A stretch of DNA of 64,000 bases from Dehalococcoidia bacterium (GTDB lineage Bacteria; Chloroflexota; Dehalococcoidia; Bin125): NCBI GenBank assembly GCA_963662615.2, contig CAXXSR010000001.1, forward strand, positions 704,001 through 768,000. Direction: 5' to 3'. Every line of letters begins with the position of its first letter. The first letter of the stretch is position 1. The translations under genes were made by a program, and so were the position numbers. Below are positions 13,667 through 29,419 of this stretch, piece by piece. The notes below the pieces were generated by a model, which saw only the letters and a list, made by a program, of their open reading frames with translations, was not told the origin of the DNA and searched no databases.

Positions 13667-13671
13667 CACTC

Positions 13672-17997: not shown

Positions 17998-18086
17998 AAC
18001 AACCCTCCATTCCTCCTTTGGCCGTGCATCGCGGCGCCGCCTGCTCCTCCCGCCGCGCCTCGCATGGATCGAACGCTCGCAGCGAC

Positions 18087-19184
18087 CTACGGGTCGCGAC
18101 GGCCCGGGTCAGAGCGGATGCCGCTGGCAGGACCGGCCGCCGCGGGCACCGTTGAATTGTGAGGGATCACTGCGTCCGTCAAGCTGGCCGCTGATCCCAC
18201 AACGGCGTCCTTCGCCAGAACACAACCGTCCACCCGCGCCGCCGCCTCTACCCGCACGCCGTCCCACAACACGCTGTCGCGAATCTCCGCGCCGCCGCCA
18301 ATCACGCAGTCGCGGCCGATAACCGCGGGGCCGCGCACCACTGCGCCCGCCTCGATCACGCTCCCTGCTCCCACCAGCAGTGGCCCCTCAAGGTGCGCGC
18401 CCGGCTCGACCGTGGCCCCCATGAGCAAAAAATCGCTCAGCGGCCACTCCAGATCCCGCCGACAGGGACCTACACCGGCCACGGCGTCCATGTTCGCGCG
18501 TCGGTACGCCGCCACCGATCCCACATCGAGCCAGTAGCCCTCATGCCGGAAGCCGTAGATCGACCGCCCCTCCGCGGCCAGCGCCGGAAACAGCGTCTCC
18601 TCCACGCGGCTGAAGGACGTCGCCGCCTCCGCCCCCAGCAGCGGCCGCGCGAACAGCCAGATGCCCGCGTTGATCCACCGCGACGGCGCCGACGCGGCCG
18701 GCGGTTTCTCCACGAAGTGGGTGATCCGGTCGGCGTCATCCAGTGCCACCACGCCGAACTCCGACGGATCCTCCACCTCCGACAGCCCGATCGTCAATTC
18801 CGCCTCCCGCGCCTCGTGGAACGCGATCAACGCGCCAATGTCCAGATCCGTGATGATGTCGCCGTTGATGACGAAGAACGGCGCGTCCCATCCCGCCGCG
18901 ATACTGGCGATGGCCCCGCCCGACCCCAGCGGCGTCTCCTCGTTGACGTAGCGCAGCTCCACTCCCAGCGCACGCCCATCCCCCAACGCCTCCTCAATGA
19001 CGTCGCCGGCGGCCGCGCCCGCCAGCGCGATCTCCGTCACGCCGGCCTCACGCAGATGCCCCAGCAGATGCGACAGCAGCGGCCTGTTGAGCACCGGCAC
19101 CAGCTGCTTGGGCGTCTTGAACGTCAGCGGTCGCAGCCGCGTCCCTTCCCCGCCCACCAGCAAGATTGCCCGCATTGACGTCAT
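18087..19184 (-). CDS. manC: Mannose-1-phosphate guanylyltransferase-like NDP-sugar synthase
   Basis: AILLVGGEGTRLRPLT...PKQLVPV, PLGSGGAI, FVEKPP, INAGIW, C-terminal left-handed beta-helix repeats. Confidence 0.8.
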   Translation of the reverse strand: MTSMRAILLVGGEGTRLRPLTFKTPKQLVPVLNRPLLSHLLGHLREAGVTEIALAGAAAGDVIEEALGDGRALGVELRYVNEETPLGSGGAIASIAAGWDAPFFVINGDIITDLDIGALIAFHEAREAELTIGLSEVEDPSEFGVVALDDADRITHFVEKPPAASAPSRWINAGIWLFARPLLGAEAATSFSRVEETLFPALAAEGRSIYGFRHEGYWLDVGSVAAYRRANMDAVAGVGPCRRDLEWPLSDFLLMGATVEPGAHLEGPLLVGAGSVIEAGAVVRGPAVIGRDCVIGGGAEIRDSVLWDGVRVEAAARVDGCVLAKDAVVGSAASLTDAVIPHNSTVPAAAGPASGIRSDPGRRDP

Positions 19185-19215
19185 CGTGAGCCCGCGTCTC
19201 TTCGCCGCTCCTCCG

Positions 19216-19273
19216 CCCCCGGCCGCCGCAGGCGGCCTCCTCCACCCCCGGCCGCCGCGGGCGGCCTCCTCCA
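19216..19273. repeat. Intergenic 29-bp direct repeat x2 containing a GGCCGCC-GCA-GGCGGCC hairpin
   Basis: Read directly between manB and manC. Confidence 0.8.
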
Positions 19274-19303
19274 CGGCGCAGCGACCTGCTGCCGGCGCTC
19301 AGC

Positions 19304-20701
19304 CTACGCGCGCGGCGTCACCTCCGGCAGCGACACCTCCGGGTCCCGGCTCAGCACCTCCCAGACGATCTCTCGAATCTCGTCCTGCCGCTCCTGCGTC
19401 TTCGCTTCAAAGCGCACCGTCAAGACGGGCCCCGTGTTGGATGCGCGCACCAGCGCCCAGCCATCGCCGAAGTCAATGCGGGCGCCGTCCACTTCCATCA
19501 CCGGGTACGCCTCACGAAAGTGGCTCACCACCTTCGCCACGACGCCGAATTTCTTGTCGTCCGCTGAAGCCAGCTTGATCTCCTCCGACGTCACATAGCG
19601 CGGCAGATCGGCGAACAGCTCCGACGCCGGCTGGTTGGCCTCCGCCAGCAGCCGCGCCACCAGGCACGCCGCGTAGACCGCGTCGTCCACTCCGTAGTAG
19701 TCCTCCGCGAAGTAGAAGTGCCCGCTCCCTTCGCCGCCCAGCAGGAAGCCCTCGTCACGCAGTTTCCGCTTCACCAGCGAGTGCCCGGTGGGGCCGAAGA
19801 CCGGCTCCCCCCCGTGCGCCCGAATGTCGTCCACCGCCGTCAGCGACATCTTCACGTCCACCAGGATGCGCGCCCCCGGATGCCGCGAGAGCAAGTCCCG
19901 CGCGAAAATCGCCACCACCGCGTCCGGGTCGTGCCGCACGCCCTGTTCGTCCACCAGGCCCATGCGGTCCCCGTCGCCGTCCCAGGCGATGCCCAGATCG
20001 GCGCCGCTCTCCCGCACCGCCTCTCGAAGCCCTTCCATGGTGGCCGGATCCTGCGGGTCCGGCAGGTGCGCCGGAAACGTGCCGTCCAACTCCAGGTTGA
20101 TGCCCTGGACCTCGGCGCCGATGCGGCGCAACGCCTCCGGCCCCGTCAGCGTCGCCACCGCGTTGGCGGGGTCCACCATCACCCGCAGCGGTCGCGACAG
20201 CTTGAACCGCGACGCCAGCAGATCCACGTACTCGGGGATCGCCTCGCGGCTCTCCAGGCCCCCCTCGCCCTCCTCGAAGTCGCCTGCCTCGGCGATCCGG
20301 CGCACCTCCTGAATCTCCTCCGGCGAGAGCGGGATCCCCCGCCGCTCCAGCAGCTTGAAGCCGTTGTATTGCGCCGGATTGTGACTCGCGGTGACGTTCG
20401 ATCCGCCGTCGATCCCCCACGACGCCGCCGCGAAATACTGCAGCGGCGACGGCGACAGCCCAATGTCCACCACTGACACGCCGCTCGCCCGCAACCCCCG
20501 CACCAGGCCGTCGCGCAGCTCATCCGATGAGGGACGGTTGTCCCGCCCCACCACCGCCCGGTCCACCCCGTATGACCGCCGCAGGAGCGTCGCGTACGCG
20601 CGCCCCACCCGCTCCGCGATCGGCCCCGTCAGGTCCTTGCCGGCGACCCCGCGGATGTCGTAGGCCCGGAACATGTGCGGATTGAGCAGCGGCGCCGCCA
20701 T
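19304..20701 (-). CDS. manB: Phosphomannomutase/phosphoglucomutase
   Basis: FRAYDIRG, TASHNP (phosphoserine loop), DGDGDR metal loop, GEGSGH, VRASNT. Confidence 0.92.
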   Translation of the reverse strand: MAAPLLNPHMFRAYDIRGVAGKDLTGPIAERVGRAYATLLRRSYGVDRAVVGRDNRPSSDELRDGLVRGLRASGVSVVDIGLSPSPLQYFAAASWGIDGGSNVTASHNPAQYNGFKLLERRGIPLSPEEIQEVRRIAEAGDFEEGEGGLESREAIPEYVDLLASRFKLSRPLRVMVDPANAVATLTGPEALRRIGAEVQGINLELDGTFPAHLPDPQDPATMEGLREAVRESGADLGIAWDGDGDRMGLVDEQGVRHDPDAVVAIFARDLLSRHPGARILVDVKMSLTAVDDIRAHGGEPVFGPTGHSLVKRKLRDEGFLLGGEGSGHFYFAEDYYGVDDAVYAACLVARLLAEANQPASELFADLPRYVTSEEIKLASADDKKFGVVAKVVSHFREAYPVMEVDGARIDFGDGWALVRASNTGPVLTVRFEAKTQERQDEIREIVWEVLSRDPEVSLPEVTPRA

Positions 20702-20824
20702 CGCCTCATCCGTTCCTGCTGCCTGATCGCTGCGTCGGGGAGGACGCGAGCCGATCGCCGGGCCCTTGCCGGTCACCGCTCGCTCGCCCGCAGTCTACAC
20801 GAACCCGCCACCGCCCCCGATCGC

Positions 20825-20998
20825 CCTGACTTGTCCTTCGCATAGCAGAATGGAGCCTGCCTGTCCTGAGCCTGTCGAAGGATCGCAGGGCCGAAAGGGG
20901 CTGGTCGAACGGCCCATCGCGCGTGCCGCGACAGCCATTGCGATCTCGTCTGACGCTTCGCTGCGGCAAGGCTCGCGCGAGGCCGCGGTCGCTCACCG
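20825..20998. repeat. REP/MITE-like intergenic element, copy A (about 170 bp)
   Basis: CTGACTTGTCCTTCGCATAGCAGAA..GGAGCCTGCCTGTCCTGAGCCTGTCGAAGG...; a closely similar direct copy lies at 21935-22104. Confidence 0.85.
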
Positions 20999-21242
20999 TC
21001 CACTGTCGCCGCGCTGCTTATCACCTCCATGTGCTTGCCGAGCAGCGGGTCGAGGAGCTTCTCGGCTCGGCACCTCCCGGACACGTTTCTCATCGCGCAT
21101 GGTCTAGCATGGAACCCGGTGCTGGGGGGCGTTCTCCCCATGCCCGCCTACATACTGATCGAGCCACCCATCCTAGATGCGACGTGTCGGCCGGCTCAGC
21201 GAAGCATGGCCCCAAGGCGGCCGCGCGAGAGGGAGTGACCAC

Positions 21243-21746
21243 GTGGAACGATGGCTGGGCATGGGGCTGATCGGCCTGGTGCTGCTCATCGGCGCGTGCG
21301 GCGGCGACAACGACAACGGCGCCGACGAACTCAGCCTCAACGAGTATTTCAGCCGCCTGCAGGCGCTCGCCGATGAGGTGAGAAGCCGGGCGGACGGCCT
21401 CGCCGAGCCAGTCAGCTTTGACGACGACGTCGCCGGCGTCTTCAACCAGAGCCTCGACATCTTCCGTGATTTCCTCAACGACGTTCGGGAGCTCAACCCG
21501 CCCAGCGAGGCACAGAGCGCGCACGAAGCCCTCGTCAGCGCGCTGGACCACTTCATCGACGCCAACGAGGACCTCGTCGGCCAGCTTGAGGATGCGAGCA
21601 CCGAGGCGGAGTCCCAGGCCATCTTCGAAAACGTGCCCGCGGAGGCCGAGGGGGCCCCCATCGGCAGCGCCTGCGCGGATCTCCAGCAGATCGCGACCGA
21701 CAACAACATCAGCGTTAATCTCGACTGCGGCAGCGATAACGAGTAG
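21243..21746 (+). CDS. Acidic helical lipoprotein
   Basis: Lipobox LLIGAC followed by GGDNDNG; two further Cys near the C-terminus. Confidence 0.75.
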   Translation: MERWLGMGLIGLVLLIGACGGDNDNGADELSLNEYFSRLQALADEVRSRADGLAEPVSFDDDVAGVFNQSLDIFRDFLNDVRELNPPSEAQSAHEALVSALDHFIDANEDLVGQLEDASTEAESQAIFENVPAEAEGAPIGSACADLQQIATDNNISVNLDCGSDNE

Positions 21747-21749
21747 TGG

Positions 21750-21809
21750 TCCGCAGCAGAGCCGCCCCGCGGGGTTCCGAAGCACATACACCCAGTGCAG
21801 CGGCGACAC
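21750..21809 (-). pseudogene. N-terminal remnant of a GIY-YIG nuclease
   Basis: WVYVLRNPAGRLCCG resembles the YVYILR...GRLYIG start of small GIY-YIG nucleases. Similarity ends at the lipoprotein stop. Confidence 0.45.
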
Positions 21810-21817
21810 GAGCGAAA

Positions 21818-21876
21818 CGGCTCCCCGGGCATCCTTCCGCAGGAAGGACCCGCTCTACTAACTGAGCTACCCCGGC
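21818..21876 (-). ncRNA. Chimeric pseudo-tRNA (Phe-like 5' end, hairpin replacing anticodon/T arms, Asn 3' end)
   Basis: Minus strand reads GCCGGGGTAGCTCAGTTAGTAGAGCGGG-TCCTTCCTGCGGAAGGA-TGCCCGGGGAGCCG. Confidence 0.7.
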
Positions 21877-21934
21877 TAGTCGTCCGCATTGCACCGATCC
21901 GGGACCGAGCCGTCAACTACCGTCCTCCGTTCGT

Positions 21935-22104
21935 CCTGACTTGTCCTTCGCATAGCAGAAGGAGCCTGCCTGTCCTGAGCCTGTCGAAGGATCGCAGGGC
22001 CGAAAGGGGCTCGTCGAACGGCCCATCGCGCGTGCCAAAGCCATCGCGATCTTGTCAGACGCTTCGCTGTGGCAAGGCTCCCGCGAGGCCGCGATCCCTC
22101 ACCG
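21935..22104. repeat. REP/MITE-like element, copy B
   Basis: Direct repeat of 20825-20998. Confidence 0.85.
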
Positions 22105-22397
22105 GCTGACGCTGAGCCTGAAATCGCCAGCACCTGGCACTCCCGCCATTCGAGTGCTAGCCTGCTGCCGCCAATAACCGGTCGAGTGATCTGCCCACGG
22201 CGGCCGCCGTCCTGTGCCGCCGCCGGCTGCGTGCGCTGGTGGTCAGCGAGTGACCGCCGGCCTCCTCGCACCCCGCGGGAGTCAACCCGCCGCACTTGGG
22301 CGTCTCGGCTGCGTCTCCCTCGACGGGCGTGCCCGAGCACGGAATGGAAGCCGCCGTCAGCGGCCTCGCCCGTCGACCCGAGCGATGGAGGTGACCG

Positions 22398-24560
22398 ATG
22401 CAGTGTCTGATCCTTGCCGCCGGGGAAGGGAGCCGCCTGGCCTCGAACGGCGACCTCAAGCCACTCTTCCGCGTCGCCGGCCTCCCCCTCCTCGAGCGCG
22501 CCGTAGTCTCCGCCCACCGCGCCGGGGCGACGGACATCCGTGTCGTCACCGGCTACCGCGCCCCCGAGGTCGAGGCCTTCCTCACCGACCTCACCCAGCG
22601 ACGGGGCATTCCGGTCCAAGCCCTCCGCAATCCCCACTGGCATGACGGCAACGGTCGCTCCGTCCTTTGCGCCCGCGACGAGCTCGACGAGCCCTTCCTC
22701 CTCCTCATGGCCGACCACGTGCTCGACGAGACCATCCTCCACACCCTCGCCGCCGAACCCCTCGCCGCCGACGAACTAGTCCTCGCCGTCGACTCCGCCA
22801 TCGACGATAACCACACCGTCGATGTTGTCGACGCGACCCGTGTCCGCCTCGATGGGACCCGCATCGTCGACATCGGCAAGGGCATCCCCCGCTTCGACGC
22901 CTGCGACACCGGAGCCTTTCTCTGCTCGCCGAGTCTCTTCGATGCGCTCGACGAAAGCCTTTCTGACGGGGACTCCACGCTCTCCGGCGGCGTCCGCCGC
23001 CTCGCGGCCCGCGGCAAGCCCCGCGTCGTGGACATCAACGGCCACTACTGGGTCGATGTCGACACACCGGCCGACGCCGACACGGCCCGGGCGCTGCTGT
23101 ACGCCACCCTGGCCAAGCCAGACGACGGCTTGATCGCTCGCACGATCAACCGCCGCCTCTCCCTGGGCCTCCTGACGCCCTTGCTCCTGCGCTTCCCCGG
23201 CGGGATCACCGCCAACCAGGTCACGCTCCTCAGCTTCCTCGTCGCGGGCGCCGCCGCCGGCTTCTTCTTCGCTGCCCTTCCCCTGCTGGGTGGCATCGCT
23301 GTGCAACTCGCCAGTGTGCTGGACGGCTCGGACGGCGAGGTCGCACGGCTCAAGAAGCAGGAATCCGACTTCGGCCGCTTCTTCGACGCCGTCGTCGACC
23401 GCTACGCGGACGCGCTCATCCTCTTCAGCATGTTCTTCTTCGCCTGGACCAGCGTCGACCTCGAGACGCTCCTGGGCGCCGCGCACGACCCAGTGGCCCT
23501 GGGCGCCGGCCTCCTTGCCATTGCCGGCACCGTCATGGTGAGCTACACCTCCGCCAAGGCGGTGGCCGACCTCGGCTACGCCTACCAGGCTCGCTGGATC
23601 GCGAGCGGCCGCGGCCGCGACCTCCGACTCTTCCTGCTCTTCTTGGGCGGCGTGCTCGCCATCGTCCATCCCCTCGCCGTCCTGATCGCCCTCGTCGCGG
23701 TCGCGATACTGACGAACGCCATCGTCTTGCAGCGTCTGCGCCTCTCCCATGCGCAGACGGGCCGCCCCAACCCCTTCGCGGGCGCCCGGACCTCGGCCAT
23801 CGTGCTCGATTTCGACGGCACGGTCGCCGACACGATGCCGATGCTCACCGCGCTCGCCACGGGGCTGATCACCGAGCGCTACCACGTCCCGGCCGCCCGC
23901 GCCCAACGCCGTTACCGGGACACCACCGGGCTCGATTTCGCCAGCCAGCTCGAGCGGCTCTTCCCCAACCACCCCGCCAACTTCGTCGTGTCGCACCAAT
24001 TCGAGGACGCCAAGCGCGACGAGATCCTCGGGCGCCCCGTTTTCCCCGAAGTCATCTCTGCACTCGCCTTCTTCCGGACGCGCGGTATCCAGACGTTCCT
24101 CTGCAGCAGCACAACGCCCGACATCGTCGCTGCCTACGTCGAGCGCCACCGCCTCGCTGGACACCTGGACGCCACCACCGGCTTCCGGCCGGGCTACCGC
24201 AAGGACGCCCAGATCGCCGGCCTGCTTGAGGCGCACGGCATCTGGCCCGAGGAAGCTGTCTTCATCGGCGATTCGCTCGTCGACGGCGCCTTCGCCCGAG
24301 CGGCCGGTGTCCGCTTTGTCGGCCTGCAGCGCGTCTTCACGGCCGCCGAGTTTCGCGCTCGCGGCCTCGCCAGCGCCGCCGACCTCGCGGCGGTCACCCG
24401 CCTCTGGACGAAGGCGCAAGCCTTCGAGTCCTCGACCCCGCAGGCGATCGCCAGCCGACCGCCCCGCCGACCTTGGTCGGGCCTGACGGCGCTGGCACCG
24501 CCGCTACCGCCGGCGCCCGCGCCGTACCCTTCCCCCGCGACTCCGCCTGATAACGCCTGA
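22398..24560 (+). CDS. Fusion of inositol-1-phosphate cytidylyltransferase-like NTP transferase, CDP-alcohol phosphotransferase (DIPPS-like) and HAD phosphatase
   Basis: ILAAGEGSRL...KPL and WVDVDT; CDP-AP signature DGSDGEVARLKKQESDFGRFFDAVVDRYAD with RDLR; HAD motifs VLDFDGTVADT and FIGDSLVD. Confidence 0.85.
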   Translation: MQCLILAAGEGSRLASNGDLKPLFRVAGLPLLERAVVSAHRAGATDIRVVTGYRAPEVEAFLTDLTQRRGIPVQALRNPHWHDGNGRSVLCARDELDEPFLLLMADHVLDETILHTLAAEPLAADELVLAVDSAIDDNHTVDVVDATRVRLDGTRIVDIGKGIPRFDACDTGAFLCSPSLFDALDESLSDGDSTLSGGVRRLAARGKPRVVDINGHYWVDVDTPADADTARALLYATLAKPDDGLIARTINRRLSLGLLTPLLLRFPGGITANQVTLLSFLVAGAAAGFFFAALPLLGGIAVQLASVLDGSDGEVARLKKQESDFGRFFDAVVDRYADALILFSMFFFAWTSVDLETLLGAAHDPVALGAGLLAIAGTVMVSYTSAKAVADLGYAYQARWIASGRGRDLRLFLLFLGGVLAIVHPLAVLIALVAVAILTNAIVLQRLRLSHAQTGRPNPFAGARTSAIVLDFDGTVADTMPMLTALATGLITERYHVPAARAQRRYRDTTGLDFASQLERLFPNHPANFVVSHQFEDAKRDEILGRPVFPEVISALAFFRTRGIQTFLCSSTTPDIVAAYVERHRLAGHLDATTGFRPGYRKDAQIAGLLEAHGIWPEEAVFIGDSLVDGAFARAAGVRFVGLQRVFTAAEFRARGLASAADLAAVTRLWTKAQAFESSTPQAIASRPPRRPWSGLTALAPPLPPAPAPYPSPATPPDNA

Positions 24561-24592
24561 CCGGACTCGGCACGCGGATCGGCCCGTTCGCC

Positions 24593-24698
24593 CCGACCTG
24601 TCCTTCGCATAGCAGAAGGAGCCTGCCCGTCCTGACCTGTCCTTGCCTTCCAGGGAAGGAGCCTGCCGAAGGGCCGAGCGGCCTGTCCTGACCTTGCC
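24593..24698. repeat. Partial/rearranged REP-like element, copy C
   Basis: TGTCCTTCGCATAGCAGAAGGAGCCTGCC and CCTGTCCTGA motifs are shared with copies A and B. Confidence 0.75.
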
Positions 24699-24714
24699 CA
24701 GAGCGCTTCGCGAC

Positions 24715-25020
24715 CTAGCGATGCTGCTGCAGTGCCTCGACGTATGCATTCTGCGCGGCGATGTGCGCTTCCAGCGCCTCACGCTCCTGCGTCTGCGCCG
24801 CCACGAGCCGATCCAACACCTCCGGCGTGATCTCCCCTGGCTCCGTGCGCGGCCCGGTCGACACGTCGAAGACGGGGAAGAATTTGCGAGTAAGTTCGGC
24901 GTGGAGCTTCTGGGCCTGCATGTACGCCATCATGGCTTCGCGCGACGTGCGGCGCCGGCGTTCAAGTTCTTCGTCGGACACGGTATCTGTCCATTCCTGA
25001 TCGGCAGTGGCACCTACCAA
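24715..25020 (-). CDS. Small helical hypothetical protein
   Basis: Charged amphipathic helical sequence; no family recognised. Confidence 0.45.
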   Translation of the reverse strand: MVGATADQEWTDTVSDEELERRRRTSREAMMAYMQAQKLHAELTRKFFPVFDVSTGPRTEPGEITPEVLDRLVAAQTQEREALEAHIAAQNAYVEALQQHR

Positions 25021-25432
25021 ACGCAGAGATCGGGACCGAGCGATACGGCAGCTACGGGCCCGGCCGGGCGATTCCTCGCCCAGAGTTGGCCAGCCTGCCG
25101 CTCCCCTCTATCGCTGGCGATTCCGTCCGGAACGACCTGGGATGCACGGTCGCGGATCGAACCTGACACGAGACTTTCGAGGAAATCATGAGCCGCCTGC
25201 GCGAGGAGCATACGGCGCGCTGCCCCGTCGTCGCGTTTAGTCATCGCACCCAAGCGTAGCTGCCGCCGGCCTAGCGCGGTCGATACGATCAGTCGCGCCG
25301 CCGGCGTTCAGTCCATCACCGCAGCGGCTGCTCATGCTCCTCAGCAGCAGCGCTGGAGGTCGCGGAGCTGCCCTACCCGGCTACGACTAACAGAGTGACC
25401 TCGCCCTCCTTCGCCCCTAGCTGCTCGAGCGA

Positions 25433-25473
25433 ATGGGTCACTCGTCCCATCGCGAATGGGGCGGGTGCACCTG
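25433..25473 (+). promoter_or_regulatory. Tandem NarL/DevR-type operator
   Basis: ATGGGTC-ACTC-GTCCCAT-N5-ATGGGGC-GGGT-GCACCTG, followed about 20 bp later by TAGTTT. Same architecture as 56722-56762. Confidence 0.7.
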
Positions 25474-25622
25474 TGGCGCTGATGGCGCGCTCGGTAGTTT
25501 CGTATCAGTCGCGAAGGTGCCCGGTGCGGCCGAGCACCCTCGCGGCTCGGCAAGTTCGCGAGCATCGCGGCGCCGACGCCTGGAAACGACGCCTGGAAGC
25601 AATGCCTGGAAGGAGTGAATCG

Positions 25623-26228
25623 ATGTTTCGTAACGGAGTCCCACGGGTGGAGTCGGACGATGACCTGGCCCATGGCCAGAGTGTGATCATCGCCGCGCGC
25701 TGGATTTTGGTCGTCGCCGGCCTCGTGCTGGCGATCTGGAATCCCGGCGGTCTCGTCGAGCTGCAGGTCGCGATCGTCGTGATCCTCGGCCTGGCGCTCG
25801 GCAACTTCGCCCTGCACACGCAAGTCCTCGGGAAGGGGCCGTCAATGGCCCGGGTGGTCTACGCGGCCAGCGTGGCCGACTTGGCGGCAATCTCTCTGCT
25901 GATCATCTCCGGAGGCGGTTTTCCGGCCGCGCCCTACGTGTTCTACCTGCCCGCGCTCCTGGCGATCTCGGTGACGTTCCGCACGGAGGTCATGGCGCTC
26001 TATACGGCGGCGGCGCTGGGCGCGTACGGACTGATCGCCGTCGTCACGGCGAGCGGGGGCGATCTGCTGACGGTGCTGATCGAACTCCTCGTGCTCGCCG
26101 CCGTGCCGGTCTGCGGCAACGTCTACTGGCGCTTGGAGCGCGACCGACGGAGCCGCGCCGGGCAACAGACAGAGGTCGACCCCCTGACGTCGCAGGCCGC
26201 AGAGGGAAGCTGGCCCCGGCCTGCCTGA
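25623..26228 (+). CDS. Membrane protein, stand-alone paralog of the sensor domain of the kinase at 56872
   Basis: AGGAG RBS; about 5-6 TM; ARWILV...GNFALH...ASVADLAAI...FYLPALLAISVTF...LERDRR. Confidence 0.8.
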   Translation: MFRNGVPRVESDDDLAHGQSVIIAARWILVVAGLVLAIWNPGGLVELQVAIVVILGLALGNFALHTQVLGKGPSMARVVYAASVADLAAISLLIISGGGFPAAPYVFYLPALLAISVTFRTEVMALYTAAALGAYGLIAVVTASGGDLLTVLIELLVLAAVPVCGNVYWRLERDRRSRAGQQTEVDPLTSQAAEGSWPRPA

Positions 26229-26258
26229 TCCACTGAGTCATACCACGAGAGGTGAGTC

Positions 26259-26876
26259 ATGCTACGCAACAGGACTACTGCCCAAGAAGCGGCCGAGGAC
26301 ATCTTCTTCGGCCAGCTCGTGATGAACTGGGCCCGATGGTTCGTCATCGGCGCCGCGGCCATCCTGATTCTCGGCACCGCAGAGCGGACCACGGACTTGG
26401 TCTTCGGCATCTGGCCCGTCGTTGGGCTGATGGCGGTCAACTTCTACCTGCATGGGCGCCGCATCGGGGAACGCCCCGCCAATCCGCGCCTGATCATGCT
26501 GGCCAGCGTGCTGGACGTGGCGGTCATCACGGTCGTCATTCTCACCGGGCTGGGCGCCGGCCTGGGCGACGGTATTCACAGCCCCTTCTTCGTCGCCTAC
26601 TACCCCGTTGTCTTGGCCTTCGCCTTCGTCATGCAGCCCCGGACGACCGTCGTCTACACCGTGGCGGTGCTGGCCGCCTACGCGGGTGCATGCGTCCTCG
26701 CCGACGGCACAACGGTGCTCAGCTCCTCGGCCGAACTTGAGAAGCTGGCGGCGCGCCTGATCACGCTCGCGGCCGTGGGCGGCCTCGGGACCTACTTCTG
26801 GCGCATCCAGCGGCGTCGACGCCACGCGCTCTTGGCTGAGGAGCCTGGCGTCGCCAACCACCCGGCGGGTTCGTAG
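26259..26876 (+). CDS. Membrane protein, second stand-alone sensor-domain paralog
   Basis: GAGG RBS; ARWFVI...VNFYLH...LASVLDVAVIT...SPFFVAYYPVVLAFAFV...RLITL...IQRRRR. Confidence 0.8.
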   Translation: MLRNRTTAQEAAEDIFFGQLVMNWARWFVIGAAAILILGTAERTTDLVFGIWPVVGLMAVNFYLHGRRIGERPANPRLIMLASVLDVAVITVVILTGLGAGLGDGIHSPFFVAYYPVVLAFAFVMQPRTTVVYTVAVLAAYAGACVLADGTTVLSSSAELEKLAARLITLAAVGGLGTYFWRIQRRRRHALLAEEPGVANHPAGS

Positions 26877-26910
26877 AGCGAGGAACGGTTGCGAGCGGGA
26901 CGACGTCGCT

Positions 26911-28140
26911 ATGAAAATCCTGCGCCATCTCACCCCTAAGTCCCGCGGCTGGCTGGACTCCCTGCTGGCGCCGGCCGCGGATCCGCGCCAGACCTTCGCC
27001 GACGTGGTCCAACGCCAGCAGGATCTCCTGGCCCGACTGCGCCAGGCGCGAACGAGCATCGCGGTGTCGCGAGAGCGACTGGAGGCCAAGATCGCGGAAG
27101 GACGGAGCAAACTCGCGCTCCTGGAGGAGCAGGCGCGCGAGCCGGGGCGCGATGACCTGACCCCCTTCGTCCTCCAGCTCCGCCGTCGCGCCGCCGAGGA
27201 GATCCACGCGCTGGAAGCGGAGCTGCGCACGCTGCGGCAGGAGGAGGAAGTCCTGCCGCTGGTGGAGCAGCGCCTCGTGGCCGAGATCGATGCCCTGCAT
27301 GCTCGCCGAGAGGTCCAGGCAGCGCGTCACAGCAGCACTGAGGCGCAGGTGCGCGTGCAGGAAGCGCTGGGCGGCATCGCCGAGGAAGTGGCCGGCCTCA
27401 GCCTGGCCCTGGAGCAGGCCGAGCAGCGAACCGAGCAACTCCAGTCCCGGGCGTCGGCGATCGACCAACTCGTCGAACTCGGGCTTCCGCAGGCGCCGGG
27501 CCGCTCCACCGGCGACCCCGCTGCACGGCGGCTGGCGCTTCGCTTCTCGTTCGAAGCCGGCAACGAGGAGATGGGGCAGTTCCAAGAGCAACTCCAGGCC
27601 GGGCTGCAGGTGGTGCAACAGCTCATCTACGAGTACGAGCAGCTCAAGCCGGTGCTGGTGCGTCGCCGCGCCACCGATTCTCTCTCCGTCGCCTACGTCC
27701 CCGCCCTCGCCGAGGAAACATACCGCCAGGGCATGAGCGTGCTCGAGCACGCGCTGGAACTTGCGCGCGCGCTGCGCTCACCCGGGACGACGGATCTCGA
27801 CGCCGACATCGCCGCGCTGGAGCGCGAAGGCGAAACGGCCCAGCGCGAAACGGCACAGCGCCAGGCGGCGCCGTCCGAACCCGCGCCAACCCTGCCCAAC
27901 ACGCTGGCGACCCTGACGGAGCGGCGGGATGCCCTGCGACGCCACCGCGCGCGCGTCGATGAGCTCATCCGCCATGCCGGCCGCTGTCAAGCGTCGCTGC
28001 AGCAAGCGCGGATCGAATTGGCGAGCCTCAACGCCAGCAATTCCGCGGCCGGCGTCAACGCCGTCACCGCGACGTTAATGAACACCCTCCAACAGGCCCG
28101 CGAGGTCCAGGAGGAACTGACCAAGGACGGCGCTGGCTAG
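26911..28140 (+). CDS. PspA/IM30-like coiled-coil protein with an extra C-terminal helical domain
   Basis: AADPRQTF...LARLRQARTSIAVSRERLE...GRDDL...AQVRVQEALGGI...AEQRTEQLQSRASAIDQLVELG follows the PspA pattern; about 200 extra helical residues follow. Confidence 0.7.
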   Translation: MKILRHLTPKSRGWLDSLLAPAADPRQTFADVVQRQQDLLARLRQARTSIAVSRERLEAKIAEGRSKLALLEEQAREPGRDDLTPFVLQLRRRAAEEIHALEAELRTLRQEEEVLPLVEQRLVAEIDALHARREVQAARHSSTEAQVRVQEALGGIAEEVAGLSLALEQAEQRTEQLQSRASAIDQLVELGLPQAPGRSTGDPAARRLALRFSFEAGNEEMGQFQEQLQAGLQVVQQLIYEYEQLKPVLVRRRATDSLSVAYVPALAEETYRQGMSVLEHALELARALRSPGTTDLDADIAALEREGETAQRETAQRQAAPSEPAPTLPNTLATLTERRDALRRHRARVDELIRHAGRCQASLQQARIELASLNASNSAAGVNAVTATLMNTLQQAREVQEELTKDGAG

Positions 28141-28204
28141 GCCCTGCGCCGTGGCGCATCACGGATCAGCGAGTGGATCTGCACTCGCAATGGAGGAATA
28201 TCCC

Positions 28205-29419
28205 ATGACGATCACAGAGCACCCCAATCAGTCGGAGACAGACACGGCCGTCATTCCCGTCTCGCCTGACGAGATTGTCCCGGCGGAGGGGACCGAGCCC
28301 ACCGCGCCCGAGGCGCCCGAGGCGCTCTCGCCGGAGGAGGTCCGGGACTTCCAGGCCCGAGCCGGCGCCTTGGTCGCCGATCTGGGCAACGCCAGCGGCA
28401 GCAAGGAGTTGCAACAGATCGACGGCATCTCCGGCCTTGGCGTTCAGGCGCAGCGCCGCGCCGGGTCGGAACTCGACCTGCTCAGGGGGCGCATGAAAGA
28501 CATCTTTACCCGCGATGGACCCAACGCCGAGCTCTGGGCCGATCTCCTGGAGATGCGCAAGGCCCTTGAGCGCATCGACCCGCAGCAGTTGAGCCGCCCC
28601 AGCCTCAACCGGCGGCTATCCGGCGTCCTCTCGTTCGTGCGCCGCTCGGCCCCCGGTTTGAAGGCGCTTGAGCGAATCGCCCTCCGCCATGAATCGGTCT
28701 CCAAAGAAGTCGAGGTGATTGAGGCGAGGCTCCGCGAGGGCCGCATGATGCTGTCGCGGGACAACGTCGAATTGCGCAAGCTCTACGAGCAGGTCGAGGC
28801 GCAGCAAGTCACGATTCAGAAGAACGCCTACCTGGGCGAGCTCATCATCCGCGAGCTGGCCGCCCTCATCGACCGGACCGACGACCCGCTCAAGGCCGAG
28901 CGGCTGCGCAGCCCCCTCCACGACGTCGCCACGCGCGTGCAGGACCTTCGCATGATGGAGGAGGTCGGGCATCAGTTTTTCGTGAGCATCGAGATGACCC
29001 GCGAGAACAATTCCCGCTTGGGGCAGTCGGTGGAGCGCACCCTCGCGCTGGGCACGAACGTCGTGACCATCGGTCTGGCTATCCAGGTAGCGCTCGTGCG
29101 CCAGAAGCGCGTCCTCGACGCGACCCGTCGGACGCGGGAGTTCCTGCGCGGCATGATCGCCGCCAACGCTGCCGCCATCAAACGCCATACGGCGGAGATC
29201 GGCGATGTCTACAACAGTCCCGTGATCGCCATCGAGAAAGTCACGCAGGCCCACCAGGACTTTGTCGACGCCATCGACATGGCCAACCGCATCAAGCAGG
29301 AGGGCATCGAGGCCGCGCGGGAAAACATCGCCCGCCTCGGCCAGATGTCCGCCGATCTGCAGCGTCGCTCTGGCGCGCTGGGGGACCCCGGACGCGAATC
29401 CACGTCCGTGGAGGTGTGA
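28205..29419 (+). CDS. telA: Toxic anion resistance protein (TelA/KlaB/YaaN family)
   Basis: GGAGG RBS; LGVQAQ...L..IDP...ESVSKEVEVI...L..G...LSRDNVEL...RVQDL...ENNSRL...QKRVLDA. Confidence 0.8.
   Translation: MTITEHPNQSETDTAVIPVSPDEIVPAEGTEPTAPEAPEALSPEEVRDFQARAGALVADLGNASGSKELQQIDGISGLGVQAQRRAGSELDLLRGRMKDIFTRDGPNAELWADLLEMRKALERIDPQQLSRPSLNRRLSGVLSFVRRSAPGLKALERIALRHESVSKEVEVIEARLREGRMMLSRDNVELRKLYEQVEAQQVTIQKNAYLGELIIRELAALIDRTDDPLKAERLRSPLHDVATRVQDLRMMEEVGHQFFVSIEMTRENNSRLGQSVERTLALGTNVVTIGLAIQVALVRQKRVLDATRRTREFLRGMIAANAAAIKRHTAEIGDVYNSPVIAIEKVTQAHQDFVDAIDMANRIKQEGIEAARENIARLGQMSADLQRRSGALGDPGRESTSVEV

What the first reader, a model, noticed from the sequence alone, without database searches (positions are those of the whole stretch)
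22398..24560. IPCT-DIPPS enzyme carrying an extra C-terminal HAD phosphatase domain
Seen: three domains in one 720-aa frame with intact catalytic motifs (DxD HAD motif I, GD motif IV). Known: bifunctional IPCT/DIPPS makes di-myo-inositol-phosphate phosphate (or related polyol phosphodiesters); the final dephosphorylation is by a separate, often unassigned phosphatase. Inference: a Rosetta-stone fusion nominating a HAD enzyme for that last step, giving one-polypeptide solute synthesis. It is a second osmolyte route next to the mannosylfructose cluster.
Basis: partly seen in the sequence, partly recalled or inferred. Interest (0 to 1): 0.7.

Follow-up and report, generated by a model that had tools for sequence, protein, structure and literature searches.

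The report
IPCT-DIPPS enzyme with fused HAD phosphatase
One gene joins the two enzymes that build an inositol-phosphate stress solute to a third phosphatase domain that probably finishes the product, which names a testable candidate for a pathway step never firmly tied to a gene.

Summary
Window 22398-24560(+) is one 720-aa ORF with three domains: an IPCT-like nucleotidyltransferase, a six-helix DIPPS-like CDP-alcohol phosphotransferase, and a C1-capped HAD-IA domain. All catalytic motifs are intact.

It is not an assembly artefact. 116 of the 120 best database clusters share the architecture. Contigs from 4 runs in 4 studies cover the ORF without indels.

The same HAD subfamily is linked to these partners in several other ways:
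- fused to CDP-OH domains alone;
- fused to NTP-transferases alone;
- encoded in overlapping CDP-OH / HAD / NTP gene triplets.

This supports one pathway.

Most likely (about 0.55) the protein makes CDP-inositol, couples it to a phosphorylated polyol (probably inositol-1-phosphate), and removes the terminal phosphate. The product would be di-myo-inositol phosphate or a close relative. Support:
- a six-TM core and the arginine pair that binds the acceptor's phosphate in PIP synthases;
- a small-molecule-type HAD;
- a separate inositol-lipid cluster next to MIPS elsewhere in the genome.

Not shown: substrates, product, expression. A lipid head-group role, as proposed for a Bacteroides NTP/CDP-OH/HAD cluster, is not excluded. 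MIPS co-occurrence is uninformative. I found no paper describing the fusion. I rate it a new variant of a known kind.

The parts
22398..24560 (+). Whole three-domain ORF, 720 aa plus stop
   Evidence: the ORF listing. AF2 model with mean pLDDT 87.2. 116 of the 120 best homologue clusters share the architecture.
22398..23105 (+). Residues 1-236: IPCT-like cytidylyltransferase domain (Rossmann-like). The AAGxGxR...K motif is invariant (A7 A8 G9 G11 R13 K21).
   Evidence: Pfam NTP_transf_3 and NTP_transferase. PDB 2xme A. fulgidus IPCT at E 1e-22 and T. maritima IPCT 4jd0 at 5e-11. Foldseek TM 0.89 and 0.81, normalised to the target. Invariant columns.
23106..23210 (+). Residues 237-271: linker and juxtamembrane helix (245-264), with invariant N251, R252 and S255
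   Evidence: Model secondary structure. Alignment invariants.
23211..23759 (+). Residues 272-454: six-helix CDP-alcohol phosphotransferase core (helices 272-291, 295-318, 324-351, 353-392, 407-420, 426-454). No further TM helices follow.
   Evidence: Pfam CDP-OH_P_transf. PDB AF2299 at 91.3 bits and AfDIPPS at 68.6 bits. The model superposes on 4mnd at TM 0.89.
23322..23399 (+). Residues 309-334: CDP-alcohol signature D309xxD312G313xxA316R317...G326xxxD330xxxD334
   Evidence: Regex. Invariant in 32 of 32 sequences of A1 and in all fused loci.
23541..23747 (+). Residues 382-450: candidate acceptor pocket, made of S382-Y-T-S-A-K387, R407xxR410 (RxxR) and R446
   Evidence: These align to the RsPIPS Ser/Lys stretch, RxxR motif and TM6 Arg, which Clarke 2015 assign to binding the phosphate of inositol phosphate. 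Conserved in 8 of 8 fused rows.
23796..24428 (+). Residues 467-677: HAD subfamily-IA phosphatase-like domain with a four-helix C1 cap (helices 480-495, 499-508, 514-521, 528-543)
   Evidence: Pfam HAD_2 and Hydrolase. Domain model with pLDDT 96.0 and pTM 0.92. The nearest solved folds are all small-molecule HAD-IA enzymes.
23808..23822 (+). HAD motif I, D471-F-D473-G-T475 (nucleophile and general acid/base)
   Evidence: Read directly from the sequence. Invariant in A1 and A2.
24267..24284 (+). HAD motif IV, G624-D625-S-L-V-D629 (Mg2+ ligands)
   Evidence: D625 and D629 are invariant.
24447..24557 (+). Residues 684-720: proline-rich tail. It is disordered in the model and is shared only with the closest relatives.
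   Evidence: pLDDT below 50 for 684-720. Alignment A1.
21927..22104 (.). REP-like repeat upstream of the gene. A second full copy lies at 20817-20998.
   Evidence: the repeat finder families D1-D4. The ~40-nt core gives 48 matches in the genome.
24584..24667 (.). Partial copies of the same repeat, 24 nt after the stop codon
   Evidence: the repeat finder families D1 and D2.

Best explanation
A self-contained, single-polypeptide pathway for a soluble inositol phosphodiester. The product is most likely di-myo-inositol phosphate (DIP).

**Step 1 (inferred from homology).** The cytoplasmic N-terminal domain condenses CTP with L-myo-inositol-1-phosphate, supplied by the genome's MIPS, to give CDP-inositol.

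**Step 2 (inferred).** The six-helix membrane domain works at its cytoplasm-facing cavity. It transfers the inositol-phosphate group from CDP-inositol to the hydroxyl of a second, phosphorylated polyol. That polyol is most likely another inositol-1-phosphate. Its phosphate would be held by R407, R410 and R446. The products are CMP and a phosphodiester that still carries a terminal phosphate (DIPP).

**Step 3 (the new part, inferred).** The HAD domain sits about 12 residues after the last membrane helix, so it is on the cytoplasmic side next to that cavity. It hydrolyses the terminal phosphomonoester through an Asp471 phospho-enzyme intermediate and releases the finished solute.

**Shown here:**
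- the architecture;
- intact and conserved catalytic residues in all three domains;
- the recurrent genetic linkage of this HAD subfamily with both partner enzymes.

**Not shown:** any substrate, any product, or expression.
For: **1. Architecture and conservation.** There are three Pfam domains. All motif residues are invariant in 32 homologues at 44-87% identity. 116 of the 120 best clusters are fused.

**2. IPCT-DIPPS core.**
- Full-length match to NCBIfam NF041135 (E 2e-70, residues 1-443).
- Match to the A. fulgidus IPCT-DIPPS crystal structure (E 1e-48).
- The model superposes on that structure as one unit: TM 0.89 normalised to the target, rmsd 3.1 A over 451 columns.
- The two best PDB hits for the NTP domain are both IPCTs.

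**3. Soluble, phosphorylated acceptor.** Clarke 2015 (passages read) make two points.
- Six-TM CDP-alcohol transferases use soluble acceptors, while lipid-acceptor enzymes carry 3-4 extra C-terminal helices.
- An RxxR motif plus a TM6 Arg bind the phosphate of inositol phosphate in PIP synthases.

Here the core has six helices and the HAD follows directly. R407xxR410 and R446 align to those arginines and are kept in 8 of 8 fused rows.

**4. Rosetta-stone network.** Of the best 150 hits to the HAD domain in the exhaustive search, I scanned 25 longer proteins.
- 8 are NTP+CDP-OH+HAD.
- 3 have an unassigned N-terminal domain plus CDP-OH and HAD.
- 2 are genuine CDP-OH+HAD fusions (P0145, P0250).
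- 2 are NTP+HAD without a membrane domain (P0200, P0218).
- L062 and L075 carry CDP-OH, HAD and NTP as adjacent genes. The overlaps are 4 nt in L062.
- L024 carries CDP-OH followed by HAD.
- The cap, which sets specificity in C1-type HADs, keeps a family signature across all these forms.

**5. HAD type.** The domain has a four-helix C1 cap (pLDDT 96). All listed nearest solved folds are small-molecule HAD-IA enzymes. They include the phosphatase domain of the bifunctional mannitol-1-phosphate dehydrogenase/phosphatase MtlD.

**6. Inositol lipid synthesis looks separately provided.** The only other CDP-alcohol transferase in the genome is PIP-synthase-like. It sits about 5.4 kb downstream of MIPS, together with two PIM-acyltransferase-like genes and a GT4.

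**7. Accessory, stand-alone cassette.**
- There are no conserved neighbours in 8 fused loci.
- No match was found in 6 same-family genomes.
- The HAD subfamily occurs in 1 of 151 class genomes.
- It lies beside a sugar-solute-like cluster and PspA/TelA stress genes.
Against: - No biochemical or expression data exist. No RNA run holds the stretch.
- The score against the IPCT/DIPPS equivalog model is 237.7 bits, against a cutoff of 580.
- MIPS is never adjacent to the fused gene (0 of 7 loci, and about 790 kb away in this genome). Twelve two-domain relatives do have MIPS in the locus.
- MIPS is present in 5 of 5 other fused genomes. This carries no weight, because 145 of 151 class genomes have it.
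- The fused clade sits on a long stem (1.14 changes per column), and its TM-helix motif differs from the two-domain forms (SYTSAK against SYTADKYD). Acceptor specificity may therefore have changed.
- The CDP-OH domain alone scores higher against AF2299, which binds CDP-glycerol, than against AfDIPPS (91.3 against 68.6 bits).
- The arginine-pair criterion was established on PIP synthases. In my alignment the Archaeoglobus DIPPS-type row has Thr at the R446 column.
- According to PMC4587543, Jorge et al. 2015 showed that a MIPS-IPCT-synthase operon in Rhodothermus makes a lipid from CDP-inositol. Nesting among MIPS-linked two-domain genes therefore does not prove a DIPPS function.
- Two-domain and split forms in 36 class genomes lack this HAD. 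The HAD is therefore not a general requirement of such enzymes.
- DIP is regarded as a solute of organisms growing above about 55 C (PMC8397731). The fused gene occurs in lineages not known as thermophiles.
Confidence: 0.55

Rival explanations
1. Inositol phospholipid head-group pathway. The NTP domain makes CDP-inositol. The membrane domain transfers inositol phosphate to a lipid alcohol (diacylglycerol, dialkylglycerol or ceramide). Alternatively it uses CDP-diacylglycerol plus inositol-1-phosphate to make PIP. The HAD either supplies the lipid alcohol or removes the phosphate of PIP.
For: - Heaver et al. 2022 (passages read) describe an NTP-transferase, CDP-alcohol-transferase and HAD cluster next to MIPS in Bacteroides vulgatus and Prevotella. 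They report a CDP-OH/HAD fusion in P. veroralis and propose, without confirmation, that the cluster makes inositol lipids.
- As described in PMC4587543, Jorge et al. 2015 showed lipid synthesis from CDP-inositol in Rhodothermus marinus.
- This genome has only two CDP-alcohol transferases.
Against: - The membrane domain has only six helices. It lacks the extra helices that Clarke 2015 link to lipid acceptors.
- It keeps the arginine pair for a phosphorylated soluble acceptor.
- Transfer of inositol phosphate from CDP-inositol to a lipid alcohol leaves no phosphate for a phosphatase to remove (reasoning from the chemistry).
- The NTP-domain motifs are invariant. That would be pointless if the donor were CDP-diacylglycerol.
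- The HAD has a closed four-helix cap, and all listed structural neighbours act on small soluble molecules.
- A PIP-synthase-like gene with acyltransferases and a GT4 already sits beside MIPS.
- The fused gene is missing from 6 of 6 same-family genomes, so it cannot make a core membrane lipid.
- This HAD subfamily was not found in 201 sampled genomes of the phylum of the Bacteroidetes MAG L022 at E <= 1e-12.
Confidence: 0.2
2. The product class is the same, but the HAD acts before the coupling step. It dephosphorylates inositol-1-phosphate (or glycerol-3-phosphate) to the free polyol. The membrane domain then couples that polyol to CDP-inositol. This is the older scheme for DIP synthesis (recalled from Chen et al. 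1998 and Rodionov et al. 2007, neither read here).
For: - NTP+HAD fusions without a membrane domain exist (P0200, P0218). The HAD therefore need not sit next to the membrane enzyme.
- Polyol-phosphate phosphatases are among the nearest folds (MtlD phosphatase domain).
Against: - The conserved RxxR and TM6 arginines point to an acceptor that still carries its phosphate.
- A free-running inositol-1-phosphatase fused to an enzyme that needs inositol-1-phosphate for step 1 would compete for its own substrate (reasoning).
- The genome already has IMPase-family genes, one of them directly beside MIPS.
- From recall, the characterised DIPP synthases use inositol-1-phosphate and not inositol (Rodrigues et al. 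2007; paper not held).
Confidence: 0.1
3. A soluble phosphodiester built from other alcohols. Examples are glycerophosphoinositol or diglycerol phosphate made via CDP-glycerol, or a so far unknown polyol phosphodiester. The HAD still removes the terminal phosphate.
For: - The CDP-OH domain alone is closer to AF2299 (91.3 bits), which binds CDP-glycerol according to Clarke 2015, than to AfDIPPS (68.6 bits).
- The fused clade sits on a long stem and has its own TM-helix motif.
- The equivalog cutoff is not reached.
Against: - The NTP domain's two best solved relatives are both inositol-1-phosphate cytidylyltransferases.
- The two N-terminal domains superpose as a unit on IPCT-DIPPS better than on AF2299 (TM 0.89 against 0.74).
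- The fused clade is nested (support 97) among genes that sit next to MIPS.
Confidence: 0.1

Closest known systems
Bifunctional IPCT/DIPPS of Archaeoglobus fulgidus (PDB 4mnd; NCBIfam NF041135)
   Same: - The N-terminal cytidylyltransferase is fused to a six-TM CDP-alcohol phosphotransferase.
- The full CDP-alcohol signature is present.
- Sequence match E 1e-48 over residues 1-443.
- The model superposes at TM 0.89, 29% identity.
   Different: - This protein carries an extra C-terminal HAD domain (residues 467-677).
- It scores 237.7 bits against an equivalog cutoff of 580.
- It is not adjacent to MIPS.
- It comes from a Chloroflexota-like genome and not from a known hyperthermophile.
AF2299 of A. 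fulgidus (PDB 4o6m, 4o6n, 4q7c), a CDP-alcohol phosphotransferase of unassigned physiological role
   Same: - It is the best solved match for the membrane domain alone (91.3 bits, E 9e-25).
- It has six TM helices, a cytoplasmic N-terminal domain and the RxxR motif.
- It does not process lipids, according to Clarke 2015.
   Different: - AF2299's N-terminal domain is only 'cytidylyltransferase-like', and it has no HAD.
- The HAD subfamily was not found with this query in the Archaeoglobus MAG searched.
- A related family with an unassigned N-terminal domain, a CDP-OH domain with an A-K variant motif, and a HAD does exist (P0152, P0155, P0163, L062, L075).
Bacteroides vulgatus / Prevotella 'alternative inositol lipid cluster' (Heaver et al. 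2022, PMC9246714)
   Same: [quoted passage not shown]
- A CDP-OH/HAD fusion is reported in P. veroralis.
   Different: - There the genes are separate or only partly fused, sit next to MIPS, and are proposed (unconfirmed) to make lipids.
- Here all three are fused and are not linked to MIPS.
- Sequence kinship of the HADs could not be shown (0 of 201 genomes at E <= 1e-12).
Bifunctional mannitol-1-phosphate dehydrogenase/phosphatase MtlD of Acinetobacter baumannii (PDB 7ocn, 7ocs)
   Same: - A HAD-IA phosphatase domain is fused to the enzyme that makes a polyol phosphate, so one protein releases the free polyol.
- Its phosphatase domain is among the nearest folds to the HAD here (TM 0.73-0.77 normalised to the query).
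- That mannitol serves as a compatible solute there is recalled, not read here.
   Different: - The partner domain and chemistry are unrelated.
- The HAD is N-terminal there.
- Identity is only 12-13%.
Bacterial PIP synthase followed by a PIP phosphatase (RsPIPS/MtPIPS, Clarke 2015; BT_1523/BT_1525, Heaver 2022)
   Same: - The logic is the same: a CDP-alcohol transferase uses inositol-1-phosphate as acceptor, and a phosphatase then removes the terminal phosphate.
- The arginine pair aligns.
   Different: - There the donor is the lipid CDP-diacylglycerol and there is no NTP-transferase domain.
- The PIPSynth model scores 52.5 bits against a cutoff of 170.
- This genome has its own PIPS-like gene elsewhere.

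Membership tests
Bifunctional IPCT/DIPPS (NF041135; EC 2.7.7.74 + 2.7.8.34) | N-terminal inositol-1-phosphate cytidylyltransferase-type domain with the nucleotide-binding GxGxR...K motif | tested here: met
   Pfam NTP_transf_3. 2xme and 4jd0, both IPCTs, are the best NTP-domain PDB hits. Foldseek TM 0.89 and 0.81. A7 A8 G9 G11 R13 K21 are invariant. Substrate specificity itself was not tested.
Bifunctional IPCT/DIPPS (NF041135; EC 2.7.7.74 + 2.7.8.34) | CDP-alcohol phosphotransferase signature DxxDGxxAR...GxxxDxxxD on a six-TM core fused behind the IPCT domain | tested here: met
   Residues 309-334. Six helices between 272 and 454. The two domains superpose together on 4mnd at TM 0.89.
Bifunctional IPCT/DIPPS (NF041135; EC 2.7.7.74 + 2.7.8.34) | Score above the curated equivalog cutoff | tested here: not met
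   237.7 bits against a cutoff of 580. By its name, the model is built on Thermococcales sequences.
Bifunctional IPCT/DIPPS (NF041135; EC 2.7.7.74 + 2.7.8.34) | Genomic association with myo-inositol-1-phosphate synthase | tested here: inconclusive
   MIPS lies in the same genome but about 790 kb away. It is in the locus in 0 of 7 fused loci, against 12 two-domain loci. It is present in 5 of 5 other fused genomes, but also in 145 of 151 class genomes.
Bifunctional IPCT/DIPPS (NF041135; EC 2.7.7.74 + 2.7.8.34) | Formation of CDP-inositol and DIPP from CTP and L-myo-inositol-1-phosphate | not testable with these tools
   This needs an enzyme assay.
CDP-alcohol phosphotransferases with a soluble inositol-phosphate acceptor (criteria of Clarke et al. 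2015) | Six-TM architecture without extra C-terminal helices, plus an RxxR motif and a TM6 Arg in the acceptor pocket | tested here: met
   Passages of PMC4634129. R407xxR410 and R446 align to the RsPIPS arginines. They are conserved in 8 of 8 fused rows. The HAD starts 12 residues after the last helix.
HAD superfamily, subfamily IA (C1-capped phosphatases and mutases) | Motifs I (DxDxT), II (S/T), III (K) and IV (GDxxxD) | tested here: met
   D471, D473, T475, S571, K602, D625 and D629 are invariant in A1. The same columns are invariant in A2.
HAD superfamily, subfamily IA (C1-capped phosphatases and mutases) | Four-helix bundle cap inserted between motif I and motif II | tested here: met
   Helices 26-41, 45-54, 60-67 and 74-89 of the domain model, pLDDT 96. 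Nearest folds are AlnB, 3d6j, phosphoglycolate-phosphatase-like proteins, beta-phosphoglucomutase and the MtlD phosphatase domain.
HAD superfamily, subfamily IA (C1-capped phosphatases and mutases) | Phosphatase activity (as opposed to mutase or dehalogenase activity) on the phosphorylated diester | not testable with these tools
   No NCBIfam equivalog is reached. The best is phosphoglycolate phosphatase at 31 bits against a cutoff of 225.
CDP-inositol lipid pathway (Rhodothermus BEPIS; Bacteroides alternative cluster) | NTP-transferase + CDP-alcohol transferase (+ HAD) encoded next to MIPS | tested here: not met
   The three enzyme types are present, but MIPS is not in any of the 7 fused loci nor near the gene in the window's genome. 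The reference sequences could not be fetched, so homology to BEPIS or the B. vulgatus genes is untested. The HAD was not found in 201 genomes of that phylum.
Phosphatidylinositol-phosphate synthase (NF045883) | Score above the curated cutoff, with no nucleotidyltransferase domain | tested here: not met
   52.5 bits against a cutoff of 170. A separate PIPS-like gene (98.4 bits, also below the cutoff) lies near MIPS.

The most novel reading that the evidence does not exclude
This HAD subfamily is the long-missing dedicated phosphatase for the phosphorylated phosphodiesters made by soluble-product CDP-alcohol transferases. The fused enzyme would then show that DIP-type solutes are made from a single portable gene by many non-thermophilic bacteria (Chloroflexota, Actinomycetota, Planctomycetota, deltaproteobacterial lineages). 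Until now these solutes have been treated as a hallmark of life above about 55 C. Given the long stem of the fused clade and its own pocket motif, the product may even be a phosphodiester solute not yet described.
Probability: 0.3. Interest if true: 0.75.

Novelty: new variant of a known kind. Interest (0 to 1): 0.55.

Why it matters
**An open pathway step becomes testable.** The last step of DIP synthesis, dephosphorylation of DIPP, has no firmly assigned gene. It is usually credited to IMPase-family enzymes, as in the figure legend of PMC8397731, or to unspecific phosphatases (recalled). A fusion that ties a specific HAD subfamily to IPCT and DIPPS names a concrete candidate. It can be tested with one construct and one point mutant.

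**Simple engineering of a protein-stabilising solute.** If the reading is right, the whole route from a common metabolite (inositol-1-phosphate) to the finished solute sits in one gene.

**Wider distribution of such solutes.** The gene family would serve as a marker for inositol-phosphodiester solutes in uncultured mesophilic bacteria.

**Relevance to gut bacteria.** It bears on the unconfirmed 'alternative' inositol pathway of Bacteroides and Prevotella, where the role of the HAD is also unexplained.

Tried and rejected
**Scans and phyletic tests**
- A single-protein scan of named genomes found no relative. The permitted repeat with alignment A1 worked.
- MIPS co-occurrence as a phyletic test was rejected as uninformative. 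MIPS is in 145 of 151 class genomes and 109 of 109 high-quality ones.
- The synteny or insertion test against same-family genomes was inconclusive. PMM is only 41-56% identical there, and TelA was not found in 0 of 5.
- No conserved neighbours exist among 8 fused loci. Only antisense shadow ORFs cluster.
- The link to the Bacteroides HAD could not be made. There were 0 of 201 hits at E <= 1e-12 in the phylum of L022, and L022's own genome has none.
- The HAD was not found with this query in an Archaeoglobus MAG or a Methanophagales MAG. The test of an AF2299-HAD link in Archaeoglobus therefore gave nothing.

**Local sequence features**
- Rfam finds only four tRNAs in the window and no riboswitch near the gene.
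- The sigma-70 and terminator scan of 20700-25500 found one promoter-like site, inside the ORF on the opposite strand, and no terminators.

**Expression**
- No RNA holder is listed among the 24 runs.

**Literature**
- Papers not held: Nogly 2014, Rodrigues 2007, Sciara 2014 and Brito 2011. Jorge 2015 was never looked up and is known only through citing papers. DIPPS- and IPCT-specific pocket residues could therefore not be compared. I used the PIP-synthase criteria instead.
- Searches for a prior description of the fusion found none:
  - 'haloacid dehalogenase' + 'di-myo-inositol': 2 papers, both irrelevant.
  - 'DIPP phosphatase': 4 papers, 1 relevant.
  - DIP + Chloroflexota terms: none of the 12 listed contains di-myo-inositol.
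  - The first search was spoiled because 'had' matches the English word.

**Apparent split or short forms that are not real**
- P0010 and P0011, close relatives 'without HAD', are frameshift truncations and not natural two-domain forms.
- Three of the five Pfam 'CDP-OH+HAD' proteins (P0122, P0123, P0144) are N-terminal fragments of triad-type proteins.

**Contig joint**
- A joint 22036->24584 in contigs of X2 and X4 (37-nt side) lies in the dispersed repeat. I do not count it as a deletion variant.

Full report
**Observation**

The window holds one ATG-started ORF at 22398..24560 on the + strand, 720 aa. Pfam places three domains in it, all above their gathering scores:
- NTP_transf_3 at residues 3-132 (NTP_transferase extends to 224);
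- CDP-OH_P_transf at 271-436;
- HAD_2/Hydrolase at 466-642.

NCBIfam gives a full-length match of residues 1-443 to the bifunctional IPCT/DIPPS model NF041135. The E-value is 2e-70, but the score of 237.7 bits is below the equivalog cutoff of 580.

The catalytic motifs are present:
- the CDP-alcohol signature DGSDGEVAR...G...D...D at 309-334;
- HAD motif I, DFDGT, at 471-475;
- HAD motif IV, GDSLVD, at 624-629.

**Is the fusion real?**

The word-indexed protein search returned 280 hits. Of the best 120, 116 list all three domain types and are 638-757 aa long. The four exceptions are damaged copies:
- P0010 and P0011 match residues 1-459 and 1-505 at 88% and 79% identity and then run into out-of-frame tails.
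- P0008 and P0009 lack the N-terminus.

In an alignment of 32 fused homologues (44-87% identity to the first row), these residues are invariant:
- NTP motif: A7 A8 G9 G11 R13 K21;
- the eight signature residues of the CDP-alcohol motif;
- HAD residues D471, D473, G474, T475, S571, K602, D625 and D629.

With strict patterns, 106 of 116 long homologues keep all four motifs. Eight of the ten misses are in my narrow N-terminal pattern.

The stretch occurs nearly identically in runs of 9 studies. Contigs of four runs from four studies cover all 30 bins of 22000-24900. Single contigs bridge both domain junctions in X1 and X4, and no indel is reported inside the ORF.

**Anatomy**

An AlphaFold2 model built on the 32-row alignment has mean pLDDT 87.2 and pTM 0.68. 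It shows:
- a Rossmann-like domain (residues 1-236);
- a juxtamembrane helix (245-264);
- six membrane helices (272-291, 295-318, 324-351, 353-392, 407-420, 426-454);
- a linker of about 12 residues;
- a HAD core with a four-helix cap (480-543);
- a disordered proline-rich tail (684-720).

Residues 1-450 superpose as one unit on the A. fulgidus IPCT-DIPPS crystal structure 4mnd. The TM-score is 0.89 normalised to the target, rmsd 3.1 A, 29% identity.

The N-terminal domain is cytoplasmic in that structure and six helices follow. By topology, the C-terminal HAD must therefore also be cytoplasmic, on the same side as the transferase's active-site cavity (inference).

Folded alone, the HAD domain reaches pLDDT 96 and pTM 0.92. 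All listed nearest solved structures are soluble small-molecule HAD-IA enzymes:
- the alnumycin P phosphatase AlnB;
- 3d6j from Bacteroides fragilis;
- phosphoglycolate-phosphatase-like proteins;
- beta-phosphoglucomutase;
- the phosphatase domain of the bifunctional mannitol-1-phosphate dehydrogenase/phosphatase MtlD of Acinetobacter baumannii.

**Relatives and linkage**

A scan of named species genomes with the alignment found 220 relatives, of which 79 loci were kept.

Seven loci carry the full fusion:
- two Dehalococcoidia MAGs;
- a Chloroflexota MAG;
- a Deltaproteobacteria MAG;
- Candidatus Scalindua sediminis;
- an Acidimicrobiales MAG;
- a Solirubrobacterales MAG.

None of the seven has MIPS within the locus. 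Twelve two-domain loci have MIPS in the locus (11 within 2 kb, L015 at about 9 kb). None of the two-domain loci has this HAD nearby.

Three loci show the HAD as a separate gene that is physically linked to its partners:
- In L062, a CDP-OH gene (802-2136), a HAD gene (2133-2759) and an NTP-transferase gene (2756-3478) overlap by 4 nt.
- L075 has the same gene order.
- L024 (Heimdallarchaeota) has a CDP-OH gene followed by a HAD gene.

An exhaustive search with the HAD domain alone found 1393 representatives at E <= 0.001, 306 at <= 1e-10 and 17 at <= 1e-30. From the best 150, I scanned the 23 proteins of 302 aa or longer plus two of 278-299 aa, 25 in all:

| Architecture | Count | Members |
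|---|---|---|
| NTP + CDP-OH + HAD | 8 | P0092, P0127-P0131, P0141, P0153 |
| Unassigned N-terminal domain + CDP-OH + HAD | 3 | P0152, P0155, P0163 |
| CDP-OH + HAD by Pfam | 5 | P0145 and P0250 genuine; P0122, P0123 and P0144 are fragments of triad-type proteins |
| NTP + HAD, no membrane domain | 2 | P0200, P0218 |
| HAD with an unassigned extension | 7 | P0125, P0133, P0134, P0206, P0245, P0248, P0253 |

The cap of the HAD sets substrate choice in C1-type members (established knowledge of the HAD superfamily). It keeps a family signature, Y-x2-T-x-G-x2-F-x2-Q...P-x4-N...E-x2-K, across the fused, adjacent and stand-alone forms.

These independent arrangements are the strongest evidence that the three activities belong to one pathway.

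**Phylogeny and distribution**

I built a tree of the CDP-OH domain with 42 rows (quick method, SH-aLRT support). The fused proteins form one clade (support 99). That clade also includes a Methanophagales fragment without a detectable HAD. It has a long stem (1.14 changes per column) and is nested (support 97) among MIPS-linked two-domain genes of Proteobacteria and Bacteroidota. The Archaeoglobus row is long-branched and basal.

In 151 sampled genomes of the window's class:
- 37 have a match at E <= 1e-20, but only the window's own genome has a match that reaches past residue 466.
- None of the six same-family genomes has any match.
- The HAD subfamily itself is found in 1 of 151 genomes.

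There are no conserved neighbours among the eight fused loci. The gene therefore behaves as a sporadic, self-contained cassette. Earlier notes of this scan call the genome an uncultured Dehalococcoidia/Chloroflexota (unchecked). The nearest named homologues agree with that.

**What distinguishes a solute from a lipid?**

Clarke et al. 2015 (PMC4634129, passages read) state the following:
- Six-TM CDP-alcohol transferases use soluble acceptors, whereas those with lipid acceptors have three or four more helices.
- Neither AF2299 nor AfDIPP synthase processes lipids.
- In PIP synthases, an RxxR motif and a TM6 arginine bind the phosphate of inositol phosphate.

Here the core has six helices. R407xxR410 and R446 align with the RsPIPS arginines and are conserved in 8 of 8 fused rows. 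A phosphorylated acceptor gives a phosphorylated product, which is exactly what a fused phosphatase would act on.

The genome contains only two CDP-alcohol transferases. The other is PIP-synthase-like (98.4 bits against a cutoff of 170). It lies about 5.4 kb downstream of MIPS with these genes:
- an IMPase-family gene that is HisN-like;
- two PIM-acyltransferase-like genes;
- a PHP-family phosphoesterase;
- a GT4.

Inositol lipid synthesis therefore appears to be provided separately.

**Caveats**

- MIPS presence (own genome; 5 of 5 other fused genomes) is not evidence, because 145 of 151 class genomes have MIPS.
- The arginine criterion comes from PIP synthases. The Archaeoglobus DIPPS-type row shows Thr at the R446 column in my alignment.
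- The CDP-OH domain alone is closer to AF2299, which binds CDP-glycerol, than to AfDIPPS (91.3 against 68.6 bits).
- The fused clade has its own TM-helix motif (SYTSAK against SYTADKYD).
- As described in PMC4587543, a MIPS-IPCT-synthase operon in Rhodothermus makes an ether lipid from CDP-inositol. MIPS-linked two-domain relatives are therefore not necessarily DIPP synthases.
- Heaver et al. 2022 (PMC9246714, passages read) propose, without confirmation, a lipid role for a Bacteroides/Prevotella cluster of the same three enzyme types. I could not show that their HAD belongs to this subfamily (0 of 201 genomes).
- The papers with DIPPS- and IPCT-specific residue data were not held.

**Mechanism proposed**

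1. CTP + L-myo-inositol-1-phosphate -> CDP-inositol (N-terminal domain).
2. CDP-inositol + a phosphorylated polyol, most likely inositol-1-phosphate -> DIPP + CMP (membrane domain).
3. DIPP -> DIP + phosphate (HAD, through the Asp471 nucleophile).

All three steps are inferred. The architecture, the motifs and the linkage are shown.

My confidence is 0.55 for a soluble inositol phosphodiester finished by the HAD. Within that, DIP itself is the leading but not the only candidate.

| Rival | Confidence |
|---|---|
| Inositol lipid head-group pathway | 0.2 |
| HAD acting upstream to free the acceptor polyol | 0.1 |
| Other alcohols, such as CDP-glycerol-based diesters | 0.1 |

**Context in the window**

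Upstream on the opposite strand lie several sugar-metabolism genes:
- phosphomannomutase;
- mannose-1-phosphate guanylyltransferase;
- a cupin of the PMI type;
- a GT4;
- a GH130 beta-1,2-mannobiose-phosphorylase-like gene;
- an SPP-like HAD-IIB;
- an SPS/MshA-like GT4;
- a fructokinase-like PfkB.

Downstream are two unassigned membrane proteins, a PspA-like gene and TelA.

A REP-like repeat flanks the gene at 21927-22104 and 24584-24667. Its 40-nt core gives 48 matches in the genome.

**Novelty**

In the searchable library I found no paper that describes an IPCT-DIPPS-HAD fusion or assigns a HAD to DIPP dephosphorylation. One paper labels an IMPase-family gene as 'DIPP phosphatase' in a figure legend. 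It also states that DIP genes had been seen only in organisms growing above 55 C before deep-sea Thaumarchaeota (PMC8397731).

Automatic annotations already list the three COG-type functions on such proteins (source names), so the architecture is visible in databases.

I rate it a new variant of a known kind, with interest 0.55. It turns an open step of a known pathway into a one-construct experiment, and it hints at DIP-type solutes outside thermophiles. The function is still inferred.

Noticed in passing
L090 (= G000:C1:1492000-1508000), about 3739-11963: MIPS sits in an inositol-lipid-like cluster:
- a divergent IMPase-family gene (HisN-like, 272.6 bits against a cutoff of 275);
- MIPS;
- two PIM-acyltransferase-like genes;
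- a PHP/CehA-family metallophosphoesterase (L090:9207-10034);
- a GT4;
- a PIP-synthase-like gene.

The PHP-family gene between the acyltransferases and the GT4/PIPS genes is a candidate PIP phosphatase.
   Followed up: partly
window 11502-20776: A sugar-solute-like cluster:
- fructokinase-like PfkB (11502-12353, -);
- SPS/MshA-like GT4 (12353-13699, -);
- SPP-like HAD-IIB (13675-14571, -);
- GH130 beta-1,2-mannobiose-phosphorylase-like gene (14629-15585, -);
- GT4 (16224-17567, +);
- PMI-type cupin, GDP-mannose pyrophosphorylase and phosphomannomutase.

The composition fits a mannosyl-fructose-type pathway. The product is untested.
   Followed up: partly
window 20817-20998, 21927-22104, 24584-24667: A REP-like dispersed repeat. 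Two ~180-nt copies (87-99% identical in their parts) bracket a 189-aa ORF with no family hit (21177-21746). Partial copies follow the fused gene's stop codon. The ~40-nt core has 48 matches in the genome. Translated, it produces spurious ORFs in the intergenic regions.
   Followed up: partly
window 22036 -> 24584 (contigs of runs X2 and X4): One contig in each of two runs joins 22036 to 24584, skipping 2547 nt that contain the whole fused gene. The joint lies in the repeat and has only 37 nt on its shorter side. It may belong to another repeat copy rather than to a deletion variant.
   Followed up: no
L062:802-3478; L075:9902-12742; proteins P0152, P0155, P0163: A second family. Its parts:
- a CDP-OH protein with a ~215-240-aa N-terminal domain that has no Pfam hit (its similarity to AF2299's cytidylyltransferase-like domain is my impression and is untested);
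- a variant signature, DGxDGExAK;
- no RxxR motif.

It is either fused to this HAD or followed by separate HAD and NTP-transferase genes.
   Followed up: partly
L048, L050, L054, L055, L057, L058, L061, L073, L078 (Acidobacteriota MAGs): An NTP-transferase match and a CDP-OH match lie about 1.7 kb apart on the same strand. Either a larger protein or a gene sits between the two modules. What lies between was not examined.
   Followed up: no
window 25395-29419: Downstream of the fused gene lie two membrane proteins with no Pfam or NCBIfam hit (25395-26228, 26259-26876), then a PspA/IM30-like gene (below the Pfam cutoff) and TelA. TelA was not found in 5 same-family genomes.
   Followed up: no
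L092-L100 (class relatives G101, G119, G153, G080, G136, G098, G054, G045, G133): The two-domain IPCT/CDP-OH matches in these genomes are reported with one TAG (in one case also a TGA) inside the match. I did not check whether the alignment merely runs past the gene's end or the stop lies within the gene.
   Followed up: no
L020 (Methanophagales MAG), 2-763: A CDP-OH domain that falls inside the HAD-fused clade. Its ORF ends right after the membrane domain, and no HAD was found in the locus or the genome with this query. The N-terminus is cut off by the contig end.
   Followed up: partly
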